In this document: piece after piece, positions 3,001 to 12,000 of the stretch
Numbering within the stretch: the first letter of the stretch is position 1
Layout of the letters: each line of letters opens with the position of its first letter
Assembly: GCA_977030845.1 (NCBI GenBank)
Contig: OZ365110.1
Coordinates: forward strand, 53,010,001-53,074,000
Length of the DNA: 64,000 nucleotides
Direction of reading: 5' to 3'
DNA from: Fimbriosthenelais zetlandica
Taxonomy: Eukaryota
Made by a program: the position numbers

Positions 3001-6000
3001 AAGCGCCTTTTAGATGCATGCAGGCAGCAGCATGATGAGGGCCGCACTATGACGAGACAGTCCGCGCCAGATGCCAGAATGACGTCATTCTTGTGCTATT
3101 TATAGCTTATCTGTGGCCAGACACACAAGAACCACGACATCGAAAGACATCTGGCGGAAAATCCACCAACTAAACTCGGAATCGTGCACGGTTTTCCTCC
3201 ACGCACTAAAAGTAAATCATACACATGTATTGGGCTACAAATGTGAATAAAAATAAATTAAAAATCATAAAAATTAAAATACAACAAATGTTCTTTCCAA
3301 GATCACTTTATGTCATATTCATAAGCATTAGCAACAATGACAAACTTGTTGCCGAGAAAAAGACATTCCAGGAAATCAAGAAATTAGGCCTATAGGCCTA
3401 ATTCTAGAAGTTACCGGTACAAGTTTAACAATAAGGTATTATGTGTTTCTCCCAGATCGTATCAATTAAGGACGAGACTAGATGGCTACATGGCACCAAT
3501 TATTTAATAAATCATGTATACATAGCCTAAGAATAAATCAGTATACTATATAAAAAATCATACAATTATTTAGACCTAACAGAAATACAGGTTAGCAGAA
3601 AGCATATTTATATGTAAAATGGGTAAATATATATGATTTATCTTTGTTTTTCATCTTTAAATTTCGGTATACCGGTACAAGGAAAAGTAAGCATATACAT
3701 GTACCGTAAGCACTCAGTTATCACATCTGTACATATTAATGTAATTTGGTAATTAGCTTAATATAATTACCGTGAAAAAACCTTTACAAACCGTTTACAT
3801 ATGAATTTACTAGATCAAGATAAGGATAAGACAAATGTGAATTCATTTAGGTTTTCGAACGCACACTACCGGTACCGGTAATTATTGACCAGAGGAAATG
3901 ACCAGTGATGTGAAGCCCTCGCTTGACTCATTTATTCTAATTCTGATGCAAAAAAAAACTAGATTAGACCTAATGATAGATCCTGTTTTACAATGCTAAC
4001 ACTACAAATATTATCACCTTATAATTTCATTGCTGCACATAGAGTCGACAAACGAAAAAAAACCATCTCGATAAGTGACATTTCAGAGAAAAATTGATAA
4101 GAAATATCATGGTAGGAGGTAGCGACCGGGAATCATTCGGCATTTTTTTTTGGTGCAAACTGTTATAACTTGCCGATGTAGGCAGTACTGGTACTGGCTA
4201 TAAAAACTTTTTGTCTAAATTTATATAGACCTATAAGATGAAATATGCATAATTACATATATTAAAAGAGATAGAACCCGTAATACCAGTAACTTTAACT
4301 AGGTAATACATGTACTTTAAAGGCACCAGGTGCTAGGTCAGAAAACCCCTTTTGAAAAAAAGAACTTCTCACTTCTGAGCAACGTGATATATTGTAACGT
4401 TATTGTCGGAGCTCCTTGTGAAAATTCTTTGATTTGTGAGCACTTCGACATTTTAATTAAAAGATTTAGACCAATACTAATATTATAGTACTATTACATG
4501 TATTATCATAATCTTTGAAATCTGAAACCAAACTAGTGCAAACACGTATATCTGCCAATTAGTTACATTTACATACCACCATGATCATAAAGTAACATTC
4601 CTTAGGCAGACATTGTTTTTGATTAACATCTTAACAACTTGATATATTTGACAAGACTGATCAGGACATGAATAAACTAAGAGAACACCATCGTGATAAC
4701 CAGCAGTTTTTGCCTAACGTTACGTACACCTGTGTTGTATCAGAATGTTCACCAAAGGACAAGATTCCGGCATTGTCCAAGGCCAAATGATCTATTCTAT
4801 AACATCCTAGGCGGCCATTAAAAAATTACGGAATACGGTGTTTGGAGGTGCGGTAATGTTGGCCTAGTTAGCATTACGTTGCACTCCAAATGGTAAAACA
4901 TGGCATTTAGTTTTACAGGGGGTTCAGGGTGTCAATTTTTGACGGAAAAAATCGTTACGTAATCTTTTAATGACGCAAACTAAATTCGTTAGAAAATGTT
5001 AGTGTTTGGGGACATTGACATGGACGTGGTGCCATGAGTTGTGGATGAGGCCTCGGAGGTTCCATATGCCTTCTGCTGACTCAGGCTGGGAGTTATGCGA
5101 GGTGTCCACTGCCTTACACACTAAATCTAACTTCTTGCCCTTCATGTTGTTGGGTATTTTCATGTGTGTCTCCCACAGCGCCCAGCCCCATTCTCGATGC
5201 ATCGGTTGTTTAGTTTTATCCAGATCCGCCACCTCCCACGTTTTCCCACCATCAAGGGAGACATCGACTCGGATGATGCCACGGCCACCGCCACTCCATG
5301 CGTACCCCTTGATGTGCACCTCCTCTGCTTCTTCCAGGGTGGCACCTTCACTGGGCTCGCAAATGGCAGACTGTATGGGGTATTCCTGGATAGCCACTGA
5401 TTTGGTGAAATCCACATTATGCCAGTCGATGGATGGATTAAATTGCTTGTAATCATTCTGCTGCCAGTGACCCTGGCATTCCTTCTTGCTGGTTGTGATC
5501 TTTGACAACCATTTCACTTGACGGGCACCAGCGATTCCTGGAGCGATAATCCGGGCCGGGTAACCATGGTCAAGCGGGAGCGGCTTACCATTCATCTCAA
5601 AAACGATCATCACATCCTTACGAGGGTCAAAAGCAGTACACTGTTAAAAATCCTGGTAATAGCTCACCTCTGGGTAAAGATAATATAACGCGGGGTATAA
5701 AGTTCAGATTTATTAATATTGGGTAGTGTTTTCAGCGGAAAATTGTCATGGTTTCAGGGGTCTTTTACTTCCAACAGCGATTGTTTATCTCTGGGCAAAG
5801 AAACTTATACCCCATTTTACTAACTTCACATTACTATTGACAGCCACCATGTACTAATGCCATAATTACCCTTAATCCTCTCAGTGGCCACTGATGCATG
5901 AAGCCAGCGGCCTAATGCCTAATCCTCCACCTCCCCACCTTAGCTTTTATGGTTATGCATGAGGCTTTGGTGAAATGAATTTCATTTACCACTTTTAAAA

Positions 6001-9000: not shown

Positions 9001-12000
9001 TATGTTTTTCTATCTCACTCATCCGGTATGTGGGTAGGTCATCCTTGAAGTTTCCAAAATTATCAGAAGCATGGGCCGCCTCCTTACAGCACTTCGACAT
9101 TTTAATTAAAAGATTTAGACCAATACTAATATTATAGTACTATTACATGTATTATCATAATCTTTGAAATCTGAAACCAAACTAGTGCAAACACGTATAT
9201 CTGCCAATTAGTTACATTTACATACCACCATGATCATAAAGTAACATTCCTTAGGCAGACATTGTTTTTGATTAACATCTTAACAACTTGATATATTTGA
9301 CAAGACTGATCAGGACATGAATAAACTAAGAGAACACCATCGTGATAACCAGCAGTTTTTGCCTAACGTTACGTACACCTGTGTTGTATCAGAATGTTCA
9401 CCAAAGGACAAGATTCCGGCATTGTCCAAGGCCAAATGATCTATTCTATAACATCCTAGGCGGCCATTAAAAAATTACGGAATACGGTGTTTGGAGGTGC
9501 GGTAATGTTGGCCTAGTTAGCATTACGTTGCACTCCAAATGGTAAAACATGGCATTTAGTTTTACAGGGGGTTCAGGGTGTCAATTTTTGACGGAAAAAA
9601 TCGTTACGTAATCTTTTAATGACGCAAACTAAATTCGTTAGAAAATGTTAGTGTTTGGGGACATTGACATGGACGTGGTGCCATGAGTTGTGGATGAGGC
9701 CTCGGAGGTTCCATATGCCTTCTGCTGACTCAGGCTGGGAGTTATGCGAGGTGTCCACTGCCTTACACACTAAATCTAACTTCTTGCCCTTCATGTTGTT
9801 GGGTATTTTCATGTGTGTCTCCCACAGCGCCCAGCCCCATTCTCGATGCATCGGTTGTTTAGTTTTATCCAGATCCGCCACCTCCCACGTTTTCCCACCA
9901 TCAAGGGAGACATCGACTCGGATGATGCCACGGCCACCGCCACTCCATGCGTACCCCTTGATGTGCACCTCCTCTGCTTCTTCCAGGGTGGCACCTTCAC
10001 TGGGCTCGCAAATGGCAGACTGTATGGGGTATTCCTGGATAGCCACTGATTTGGTGAAATCCACATTATGCCAGTCGATGGATGGATTAAATTGCTTGTA
10101 ATCATTCTGCTGCCAGTGACCCTGGCATTCCTTCTTGCTGGTTGTGATCTTTGACAACCATTTCACTTGACGGGCACCAGCGATTCCTGGAGCGATAATC
10201 CGGGCCGGGTAACCATGGTCAAGCGGGAGCGGCTTACCATTCATCTCAAAAACGATCATCACATCCTTACGAGGGTCAAAAGCAGTAGCGGCCGGGATGG
10301 ATGCCTCGTAGTGGACACCCTCAATGTCTTTATCAAGGCCGGTGAATGTCACATGTTCAACGTCTTCCTCCCTGATTCCAGCATAGGTGAGAACATCACT
10401 GAGTTTGACCCCAGTCCACTCAGCATTGCTGATGGCATTTGACCCCCAGGAGAGACCCCGTACACCTTTATAGGTGGCCATGTGGGACCTCCTGTTACCA
10501 GCACACTGCACCGCCGCCACCATCTTATGAACAGGGAAGAGCCTCTTGAGCCTGTCCACATTGAAGACCACAGGATTCCTCCAACCCTCTCCTGAAATGG
10601 CTATTGAATGGTTCTTGGCATCAATCTTAGGAACCGGTAGATGATTTCTAACGAAGAAAAGGTCGTTAGGTGTAAGGTAGGCATCTGTGAGGAGCTCAGC
10701 TGGTGGCTCAGCGTTGAATGGCTTCTCAGAATTGACGGTCAATGCAGGATGCCTTTGTGGATCATTAGCAAAAGGATCATTAGCATCAGTAACTTTAACT
10801 TTGACTTTGTCATCAGGATGGAGGTTACCAATCCTCAGTTCCTCCATTATCTCCAGGACATGGACACTAAAATGCTGGGCGTAGGTGCTGAAGTAAGGCT
10901 CCAGAGGCTTGCCAGCCGCCAGGAGGATTTTCTTTCCTCCTGGATGACCCTCAATGAAGTCTGTGACGTTGTAAACCCCATCTTTGAACGTCACCCAGAC
11001 GCCGTTTTTCGCGTCGTTATGTTTTTCTATCTCACTCATCCGGTAGGTGGGTAGGTCATCCTTGAAGTTTCCAAAATTATCAGAAGCATGGGCCGCCTCC
11101 TTACAGTGGGACTCATGTCTTCGCCAGTATATTGAAGCACCTAGAAAATAACCACAGAAAAAAACAATTACAATTGTGGTCAGTTGATTGACAGTTTTTG
11201 TATTGCTAACTGTATTGAGAGGATCTAGCCTACGTCTAATGGTTTATTCAATAAAATGATTTACAATTTGCAGAGTGCGTTCAGGTCAATTTCCATCAAA
11301 ATAAAAGGCGGGCAGTGAGTTGTTTTCCTCCTAACCTCCTAACCCAAAAATATGATAGGTCTATTTATAGATCTGTAGGCCCTATGAGTATACCGGTATG
11401 TGAGTGCCACAATAATACATTCATAAGCATCATGGGAATAACGCTCCAAATGAAACAAAATATTCTGCTCGTAAACAGGTAAAAAACATGAGAACATTTC
11501 TCTCAAAGTACTGACAGTGATACTCTGAGGAAACTTGCTGATAACAACAATACTTATAAACTAAAATTATCTCCATTAGCGTACAAAAAACAAATAGAAT
11601 CGATCTCAATCGGTGAATAAATGTATCTTGTCAATGACTTATAAGTAGCCTATAGTGAGTACAAATCAATGTGGAAATATCAAGAAATGTCCCAACCAAC
11701 GTATAAAGCAGCTCCTTATCTCTATATAATCATACAACGAGTCCCAAATCTAGGACGACAAAAGGGACATTTCTATATTTCCAAGGAGCGCAACGGTAGG
11801 CCTACGTATATATCAGCACGATAATCATCCTTAGCTGACGCAATGGATAGCTACCAGGACCAGGGTAGATTATTTTATTTTCAAGTAAAGCCACTTGAAT
11901 TCAGGTCATGAATGATATATGTATAGTAATAACATTATATGAAACATTAGATTATGTACCGGTACCATGTAAGCCTAAATAAGGTTTGTGGGTAAAAGCT

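What the first reader, a model, noticed from the sequence alone, without database searches (positions are those of the whole stretch)
4441..11106. SUOX tandem duplicate with a sharp two-part divergence pattern
By eye, 4441-5638 versus 9090-10287 is identical over 1198 bp, including ~560 bp non-coding. In contrast, 8271-9089 versus 10288-11106 differs at about 18 of 819 positions, all synonymous (the two ORF-track translations are the same). The switch falls close to the transposon insertion site. Synonymous-only change implies that half diverged under purifying selection, e.g. as two functional alleles joined by unequal recombination (2-bp AG microhomology at the junction). The identical half suggests recent gene conversion or a shared haplotype. 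A haplotype mis-join or polishing artefact is the main alternative.
Basis: partly seen in the sequence, partly recalled or inferred. Interest (0 to 1): 0.65.

Follow-up and report, generated by a model that had tools for sequence, protein, structure and literature searches.

The report
Young partial SUOX duplicate split by transposon
An invertebrate sulfite oxidase gene is followed by a truncated second copy broken by a mobile-element insertion, and the odd half-identical, half-silently-diverged pattern is real but looks like ordinary duplication plus recombination rather than a new mechanism.

Summary
4439-5638 equals 9088-10287 exactly over 1200 bp. 8271-9089 differs from 10288-11106 at 18 of 819 positions, all third-codon and synonymous (dS 0.107, dN 0).

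The gene is on the minus strand. Copy 2 (ORF 9648-11243) is a full three-domain sulfite oxidase body. Copy 1 is a head-to-tail, 5'-truncated repeat of a 2019-bp unit, joined through 2 bp of microhomology. It is split by a 2630-bp insertion (5639-8268) with a TA target duplication.

Silent-only change cannot have built up in a dead copy (P about 1e-6 to 1e-12). The 18 variants are therefore inherited from a second functional SUOX sequence, most simply another allele.

The identical half is identical by very recent descent or conversion. The insertion and the junction split the homology into two blocks, which explains where the switch falls.

An assembly artefact cannot be excluded without reads. 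However, there is no gap between the copies and the junction is seamless.

This is an ordinary kind of event and of low interest. The window is annelid-like, not human.

The parts
9648..11243 (-). Copy 2: open frame of the intact sulfite oxidase body (531 codons stop to stop), with hydrophobic N-terminal segment, Cyt-b5, molybdopterin-binding and dimerisation domains. It has no in-frame ATG before the hydrophobic segment, so a first exon must lie upstream.
   Evidence: chicken sulfite oxidase 1sox_A, E 2.4e-159, query 30-494 to chain 4-464; QCAGNRRS cysteine aligned
10288..11106 (-). B2: 5' part of the duplicated unit in copy 2 (819 bp, all coding). It carries one version of the 18 silent variants.
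9088..10287 (-). A2: 3' part of the unit in copy 2 (coding to the stop at 9648-9650, then 560 bp of 3' flank). Identical to A1.
9088..9089 (.). Novel junction: AG (CT on the gene strand) shared by the end of B1 and the start of A2. It lies in codon context HC|KE of the gene.
8271..9089 (-). B1: 5' part of truncated copy 1 (Cyt-b5 and the first two thirds of the molybdopterin domain). It differs from B2 by 18 silent changes.
5639..8268 (.). 2630-bp insertion splitting copy 1. Its termini are CACTG...CAGTG. No ORF of 70 aa or more has a Pfam match. It carries a nested SINE-like repeat at 6167-6442.
5637..5638 (.). TA, left copy of the target-site duplication (right copy at 8269-8270). The empty site in copy 2 has a single TA at 10286-10287.
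8269..8270 (.). TA, right copy of the target-site duplication.
4439..5638 (-). A1: 3' part of copy 1 (end of the molybdopterin domain, dimerisation domain, stop at 4999-5001, 560 bp of 3' flank). Identical to A2.
9101..9106 (-). ATTAAA hexamer 12-13 nt before the end of the duplicated unit (twin at 4452-4457). It is a possible poly(A) signal of SUOX.

Best explanation
This is a real and very young partial tandem duplication of an invertebrate sulfite oxidase gene.

A 2019-bp unit was copied head to tail through a non-homologous, 2-bp-microhomology junction. The unit runs from just after the N-terminal hydrophobic segment to about 560 bp past the stop codon. The downstream copy (copy 1) lacks the promoter, the first exon or exons and the targeting segment, so it was dead on arrival. 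A 2.63-kb non-autonomous cut-and-paste-type element then inserted at a TA inside it.

The 18 silent differences are not post-duplication decay. They are standing synonymous polymorphism of functional SUOX, brought in by exchange with a second, diverged allele.

The 1200 identical bases are identical by recent descent from the duplication itself, or by conversion between the copies.

The insertion and the novel junction cut the homology into two separate blocks of 1200 bp and 819 bp. Recombination or conversion acts on one block at a time, which is why the switch sits at the insertion.

My preferred order of events is: duplication within one chromosome, then the insertion, then allelic conversion of the 819-bp block.

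Shown: the anatomy, the counts and the silent-only pattern. Inferred: the reality of the structure in the organism, the allelic source and the order of events.
For: - Head-to-tail copies with no spacer and a seamless 2-bp junction. There are 0 N in the 64,000-base window, and one search lists only one other direct-repeat family, of 100 nt.
- Clean insertion with a TA duplication. With the insertion and one TA removed, copy 1 reads through and encodes the same 485 residues as copy 2, so the insertion and truncation are recent.
- 18 of 18 differences are third-position and synonymous, with dS 0.107 and dN 0. P(9 of 9 neutral changes silent) = 1.3e-6 and P(18 of 18) = 1.6e-12. Both versions were therefore shaped inside working genes.
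- There are 0 differences in 1200 bp, of which 560 bp are non-coding. At the silent rate of the other half, 13 coding and about 56 non-coding differences would be expected. That half shares a much more recent ancestor.
- The differences span the whole 819-bp block, from 54 bp to 60 bp from its two ends, as expected if the block is the unit of exchange.
- Allelic dS of 0.06-0.12 with low dN/dS inside single individuals is documented for a hyperdiverse marine invertebrate (passages of PMC8270832).
- The window's SUOX groups with unnamed sequences next to an annelid.
Against: - No reads, depth or population data are available, so the structure itself is unverified.
- A silent divergence of about 10% is high for alleles and requires a hyperdiverse species. 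Nothing in the window measures its diversity.
- The coincidence of switch and insertion is only moderately improbable by chance: about 100 of 2019 bp, roughly 5%, by my own estimate. The 'homology block' argument is therefore suggestive, not compelling.
- Two bases of microhomology occur by chance in 1 of 16 junctions.
- Two or three separate recent events are needed under any real-biology history.
- No second copy of the insertion was found in the window, and its inverted termini are only 5 bp long. Its status as a transposon therefore rests on the TA duplication and the clean empty site.
Confidence: 0.62

Rival explanations
1. Assembly artefact. The gene is single-copy. One haplotype carries the insertion and the other does not, and the assembler or a gap closer laid both down in series (a false heterotype duplication). 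A milder form: the duplication is real, but the consensus switches haplotype inside it, so the 18 differences are heterozygous sites of one individual and not differences between the two copies on one chromosome.
For: - The 18 variants look exactly like allelic SNPs of a constrained gene.
- A heterozygous 2.6-kb insertion is the kind of structure that upsets assemblers.
- False duplications are common in heterozygous genomes. They favour borders between homozygous and heterozygous stretches, and some are joined by wrong gap filling (passages of PMC9516828).
Against: - There is no gap: 0 N in the window.
- The B1-to-A2 junction is a novel sequence that needs at least one read to exist.
- False heterotype duplicates are kept apart because they differ, yet 1200 bp here are identical, including 560 non-coding bp. 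An overlap assembler would have merged these.
- One search lists only one other direct-repeat family in 64 kb, of 100 nt.
- The whole structure (6.7 kb) is short enough to sit within single long reads (inference).
Confidence: 0.2
2. Old functional paralogues. The duplication is as old as dS of about 0.1, and both copies stayed functional. Copy 1 would use the new in-frame ATG at 9100-9098 to make a sulfite oxidase without the targeting and anchor segment. Later the insertion knocked out copy 1, and conversion homogenised the 1200-bp block up to the insertion.
For: - dN = 0 over 272 codons at dS = 0.107 is what two selected genes would show.
- Copy 1 has an open frame from 9139 with an ATG five codons before the junction.
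- Both halves of copy 1 are free of stops and frameshifts.
Against: - Copy 1 has no promoter or first exon of its own and starts 12-13 nt after a likely poly(A) signal of copy 2.
- An in-frame ATG within 17 open codons is easily chance.
- It needs the same conversion step as the other histories, plus long-term function of an odd gene.
- No relative with this N-terminus was seen among the 120 listed hits. Shorter forms were not searched for.
Confidence: 0.07
3. Transposon-excision gap repair. Both copies once carried the insertion. Excision from copy 2 left a double-strand break that was repaired from the homologous chromosome's empty, diverged allele. This restored the exact empty site and converted one side (B2) only.
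For: - The switch is at the insertion site, and the empty site in copy 2 is perfect, with a single TA and an intact frame.
- Template-directed repair after excision of cut-and-paste elements is established for P and Tc1 elements (recalled, not from a call).
Against: - It requires the insertion to predate the duplication.
- It requires a strictly one-sided tract of at least 760 bp.
- No transposase or second copy of the element was found, and the element class is unproven.
Confidence: 0.05

Closest known systems
Animal sulfite oxidase (SUOX; chicken enzyme, PDB 1SOX)
   Same: Cyt-b5, molybdopterin-binding and dimerisation domains in order. It aligns over query 30-494 to chain 4-464 at E 2.4e-159, with the molybdenum-ligand cysteine motif QCAGNRRS conserved. 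A hydrophobic segment lies before the heme domain, as in relatives.
   Different: Only 50-56% identical to named animal proteins. The best matches (83% and 76%) are unnamed. Almost the whole coding region sits in one exon. The start codon and presequence were not found in the window.
Young partial ('dead-on-arrival') tandem gene duplicates formed by microhomology-mediated joining
   Same: Direct head-to-tail copies, a 2-bp microhomology junction, one breakpoint inside the coding region and one in the 3' flank, and near-identity of the copies.
   Different: One half carries about 10% silent divergence, so a second event with another functional sequence is needed. The truncated copy is also hit by a mobile element.
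Interlocus or allelic gene conversion limited by interrupted homology
   Same: A sharp step between 100% identity and divergence, placed at a large heterology, namely the 2.63-kb insertion.
   Different: Donor and direction are unknown. No GC bias appears among the 18 sites: 10 against 7, my count. The coincidence with the insertion has a chance probability of roughly 5% (my estimate).
False heterotype duplication in genome assemblies (Ko et al. 2022, PMC9516828)
   Same: Two adjacent copies of one gene that differ by what look like allelic SNPs, next to a probable heterozygous structural variant.
   Different: There is no gap between the copies, the junction is seamless, and more than half of the duplicated sequence is identical. 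Depth and k-mer criteria could not be tested.
TA-targeting or CACTG-ended cut-and-paste DNA transposons (Tc1/mariner-like, or CACTA/Mirage/Chapaev-like; features recalled)
   Same: 2-bp TA target duplication, termini CACTG...CAGTG, a clean empty site and repeated subterminal motifs.
   Different: The inverted repeat is only 5 bp long. The subterminal motifs are on the same strand in mirrored order. There is no transposase and no other copy in the window.

Membership tests
Eukaryotic sulfite oxidase | Cyt-b5 heme domain + molybdopterin-binding domain + Mo-co dimerisation domain in one chain | tested here: met
   PF00173 6.3e-15, PF00174 2.3e-55, PF03404 3.6e-39 in copy 2. Copy 1 holds the same domains, split between its two pieces.
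Eukaryotic sulfite oxidase | Full-length similarity to a solved sulfite oxidase, with the molybdenum-ligand cysteine | tested here: met
   1sox_A at E 2.4e-159. The cysteine of QCAGNRRS aligns with chain residue 185 (my count in the printed alignment; entry 3hbg is named mutant C185S).
Eukaryotic sulfite oxidase | Start codon and mitochondrial presequence | tested here: inconclusive
   There is no in-frame ATG in 11243-11141. tblastn with the first 110 residues of 9 relatives found nothing credible upstream of 11243 (all E >= 0.54). Presequences are poorly conserved.
Tandem segmental duplication by end joining or replication slippage | Direct head-to-tail copies with a novel junction showing microhomology | tested here: met
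   the unit 9088-11106 is repeated as 4439-9089 (with the insertion), with AG shared at 9088-9089.
Tandem segmental duplication by end joining or replication slippage | Junction present in the organism's DNA (spanning reads or PCR) | not testable with these tools
   No reads or other individuals are available.
False heterotype assembly duplication | Assembly gap between the duplicated pair | tested here: not met
   0 N in the window. Criterion taken from passages of PMC9516828.
False heterotype assembly duplication | Haploid-level read depth and haplotype-specific single-copy k-mers | not testable with these tools
   No reads.
Cut-and-paste DNA transposon (non-autonomous) | Target-site duplication and intact empty site | tested here: met
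   TA at 5637-5638 and 8269-8270, with a single TA at the empty site 10286-10287.
Cut-and-paste DNA transposon (non-autonomous) | Terminal inverted repeats | tested here: inconclusive
   only CACTG is shared at the very ends. The best local match of 200-nt ends is 9 nt and internal.
Cut-and-paste DNA transposon (non-autonomous) | Transposase, or multiple dispersed copies | tested here: not met
   0 Pfam families in 4 of 4 ORFs of 70 aa or more; no second copy in the window apart from the nested SINE-like part.
Processed (RNA-derived) 5'-truncated copy | Poly(A) tail at the 3' end, and loss of introns | tested here: not met
   There is no A-run at 4439. The intron test is uninformative because the unit lies inside one exon. 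The unit does end 12-13 nt after an ATTAAA.

The most novel reading that the evidence does not exclude
Copy 1 was, until the very recent insertion, a working second sulfite oxidase gene. It would start at the new ATG at 9100-9098 and lack the targeting and membrane-anchor segment, giving an enzyme in a different compartment, and it would have been kept under purifying selection for a time worth dS of about 0.1. The 2.63-kb insertion then became a hard boundary for gene conversion between the paralogues. That would make the locus a natural snapshot of how one transposon insertion partitions concerted evolution inside a gene.
Probability: 0.07. Interest if true: 0.45.

Novelty: new member of a known kind. 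Interest (0 to 1): 0.22.

Why it matters
If real, the locus is a tidy worked example, not a new principle. It is a dead-on-arrival partial duplicate, a fresh mobile-element insertion, and a mosaic of identity by descent and imported allelic variation, with the step at the homology break.

Its practical value is for annotation. Copy 1 should be called a pseudogene fragment, not a second SUOX gene. The region is also a good place to test the assembly for haplotype mixing.

The silent divergence of about 10% hints that the source species is hyperdiverse, or that a second SUOX sequence exists. That matters for anyone calling variants or gene families in this genome.

Tried and rejected
- **Post-duplication decay.** Neutral decay of the truncated copy as the source of the 18 differences is rejected by the silent-only pattern.
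- **Retrocopy origin.** Considered because the unit ends 12-13 nt after an ATTAAA. Rejected for lack of a poly(A) tail. The intron test is uninformative.
- **Transposon-mediated duplication.** Alternative transposition, as known for maize Ac/Ds (recalled), puts the element at the junction between the copies. Here it lies inside one copy.
- **Insertion spliced out as an intron.** By eye, the nearest usable donor and acceptor would leave 29 extra bases, which is out of frame. Not pursued.
- **Insertion as a transgene or recoding cassette.** No Pfam match in its 4 ORFs of 70 aa or more, and it carries a repeat found elsewhere in the window.
- **Rfam and tRNA scans of the window.** 0 matches each. 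The SINE-like repeat therefore could not be tied to a tRNA.
- **Bacterial-type promoter and terminator scan of 9000-9700.** Counts were at shuffle level, and the scan does not apply to a eukaryote.
- **Search for the first exon.** tblastn with relatives' N-termini found nothing.
- **Literature search for conversion limited by transposon insertions in tandem duplicates.** The listing gave no paper directly on the point, and none was read.
- **Not checked.** The synonymous variants therefore could not be polarised against relatives, and no other copy of the insertion could be sought. Supplementary files of PMC9516828, which show an allele-specific true tandem duplication for comparison, were not seen.
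Full report
**What is there**

The window holds no N. On the plus strand the order is:

- left flank
- A1, 4439-5638
- insertion, 5639-8268
- B1, 8271-9089
- A2, 9088-10287
- B2, 10288-11106
- right flank

A1 and A2 are identical over 1200 bp (seen also). B1 and B2 match at offset 2017 from 8268 to 9089. They have exactly 18 mismatches in the 819 positions 8271-9089.

The identical stretch is 2 bp longer than stated only because it includes the AG shared at the junction. 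Window-wide, one search lists only one other direct-repeat family, a 100-nt dispersed repeat, and no inverted pairs.

**The gene**

The gene lies on the minus strand.

- Copy 2 is one open frame, 9648-11243. It carries Cyt-b5, molybdopterin-binding and Mo-co dimerisation domains.
- It aligns end to end with chicken sulfite oxidase (1sox_A, E 2.4e-159), including the QCAGNRRS cysteine.
- Relatives also align over its hydrophobic segment just before the heme domain.
- No in-frame ATG precedes that segment, so a first exon with the presequence should lie upstream. tblastn with the first 110 residues of nine relatives did not find it.

Copy 1 follows copy 2 directly on the gene strand.

- It starts inside the coding region (…HC|KEAAH…), after the hydrophobic segment. 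It therefore lacks the promoter, first exon and targeting part.
- Its two halves were searched separately and hold the expected domain pieces.
- The halves were joined only inside a script, with the insertion and one TA taken out, and the joined form went to no search. Read that way, copy 1 encodes the same 485 residues as copy 2.
- tblastn finds no further SUOX piece in the window.

**The junction and the insertion**

The novel junction shares AG at 9088-9089.

The insertion is 2630 bp.

- It is flanked by TA on both sides, where the empty site in copy 2 has one TA. It begins CACTG and ends CAGTG.
- Beyond those 5 bases there is no convincing inverted repeat.
- Four of four ORFs of 70 aa or more have no Pfam match.
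- The only part repeated elsewhere in the window is a nested SINE-like segment. The two termini occur once each.
- Three 10-12-nt motifs recur near both ends on the same strand in mirrored order. That is more than in any of 2000 shuffles.

I read it as a non-autonomous cut-and-paste-type element. Its class is open. The resemblance to TA-targeting Tc1/mariner or to CACTG-ended CACTA/Mirage/Chapaev elements is recalled, not tested.

**The two-part pattern is not chance**

- All 18 differences are at third codon positions and synonymous, with 15 transitions and 3 transversions.
- Nei-Gojobori gives 18 synonymous changes over 180.8 synonymous sites (dS 0.107) and none over 635.2 non-synonymous sites.
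- Only 22% of random changes in this stretch would be silent. So P(18 of 18) is 1.6e-12, and P(9 of 9) is 1.3e-6 even if only half the changes fell in the dead copy.
- At the same silent rate, about 13 differences would be expected in the coding part of the identical half and about 56 in its 560 non-coding bases. None is seen (P 7.9e-7 and 3e-26). Fisher's test on all sites gives 7.9e-8.
- The first difference is 54 bp from the insertion site and the last is 60 bp from the junction, against a mean spacing of 45.5 bp. The diverged tract is thus co-extensive with the 819-bp block. The differences are mildly clustered: the largest gap is 234 bp, P 0.033.

**What this implies**

Copy 1 cannot have been a working gene in its present form, yet it shows no non-silent change. 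The two versions of the 819-bp block must therefore have diverged while both were parts of functional SUOX sequences, and copy 1 must be very young. The identical block must share a far more recent ancestor than the diverged block. Any real-biology history needs the duplication, the insertion and one exchange event.

- I favour a duplication within one chromosome. This is the usual context for a 2-bp-microhomology junction (my knowledge). At birth both blocks are then identical.
- The insertion follows.
- Exchange with a diverged allele then affects the 819-bp block. That block is an island of homology bounded by the insertion on one side and the junction on the other.
So does a simple allelic crossover in copy 2, at the cost of a roughly 5% coincidence with the insertion site (my estimate: about 100 of 2019 bp).

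Allelic dS of 0.06-0.12 with low dN/dS within single animals has been reported for a hyperdiverse barnacle (passages of PMC8270832). An allelic source is therefore possible, but only in a very diverse species.

**Which organism**

- The best protein matches are unnamed (83%, 76%, 68%).
- Named animal proteins reach only 50-56% (3113 proteins at E <= 0.001 among 8000 scored candidates, 120 listed).
- In a quick tree of 33 rows, the window groups with unnamed sequences next to Capitella, an annelid, with SH-aLRT 96. The rows were the window, 24 named hits chosen from the list and 8 unnamed top hits. The other 88 listed hits were left out.
- This is a single-gene placement. I take the window for an annelid-like invertebrate, not for human.

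**Artefact?**

This cannot be excluded without reads.

Ko et al. (PMC9516828; abstract and passages seen) list these marks of false duplications:

- haploid-level depth
- a gap between the pair, or wrong gap filling
- discordant pairs
- haplotype-specific k-mers

They also note that borders between homozygous and heterozygous stretches are prone to false duplication.

Against an artefact:

- Here there is no gap.
- The junction is a seamless novel sequence.
- 1200 of about 2019 duplicated bases are identical, which an overlap assembler would merge rather than keep apart.

I put a full or partial artefact, including a consensus that switches haplotype inside a real duplication, at about 0.2.

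**Other readings**

- Old functional paralogues with later conversion (0.07). This needs a truncated gene without its own promoter to have been kept by selection. The in-frame ATG at 9100-9098 is the only hint.
- Excision of the element from copy 2 with one-sided repair from a diverged allele (0.05). This would explain the switch point, but it rests on an unproven element class.
- A retrocopy origin is contradicted by the missing poly(A) tail, although the unit ends 12-13 nt after an ATTAAA.

**Verdict**

The specific history is unresolved.

The thing itself is a member of well-known kinds: a partial tandem duplicate, a transposon insertion, and mosaic divergence through recombination or conversion. 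Interest is low.

The main practical points are to annotate copy 1 as a pseudogene fragment and to check the region against reads.

Supplements of the cited papers were not seen.

Noticed in passing
window 5671-5682 / 8223-8234, 5719-5728 / 8182-8191, 5863-5872 / 8012-8021: Three 10-12-nt motifs occur near both ends of the 2630-bp insertion on the same strand but in mirrored order. They share 8 nine-mers, a count that 0 of 2000 shuffles reach. The true inverted termini are only 5 bp long. This is an unusual end architecture for a TA-flanked element.
   Followed up: partly
window 6167-6442, 41496-41775, 42858-42964, 16002-16068: A SINE-like dispersed repeat of about 280 bp, 87-96% identical between copies. 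One copy is nested in the insertion and two flank the BTB ORF. ARAGORN and Rfam gave no tRNA or RNA family match.
   Followed up: partly
window 9101-9106 and 4452-4457 (minus strand): An ATTAAA lies 12-13 nt before the 3' end of the duplicated unit, so the unit ends about where the SUOX mRNA would be cleaved. There is no poly(A) tail at 4439. By my estimate, such a hexamer would fall there by chance about 3% of the time.
   Followed up: partly
window 9098-9100 (minus strand): The junction creates an in-frame ATG five codons upstream of the truncated copy (MSKCC|KEAAH…), supplied by the 3' flank of copy 2.
   Followed up: no
window 11141-11243 and upstream: The intact SUOX frame has no in-frame ATG before its hydrophobic segment. 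Relatives carry about 50 or more extra N-terminal residues. The first exon was not found within the window by similarity.
   Followed up: partly
window 21835-22620 (-) and 22659-23939 (+): A YqaJ-like exonuclease ORF (PF09588, 2.4e-15) sits back to back with a DDE_Tnp_4 + HTH_Tnp_4 transposase ORF of 426 codons (PF13359, 2.9e-38). This is a PIF/Harbinger-type transposase next to a recombinase-like gene, possibly one mobile element.
   Followed up: no
window 41849-42760 (-): A long exon of 303 codons with BTB/POZ matches (PF00651, 3.8e-17, two stretches). It lies in the most GC-rich part of the window.
   Followed up: no
window 7499-7539: A 41-nt near-perfect palindrome (88%) lies inside the insertion.
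   Followed up: no
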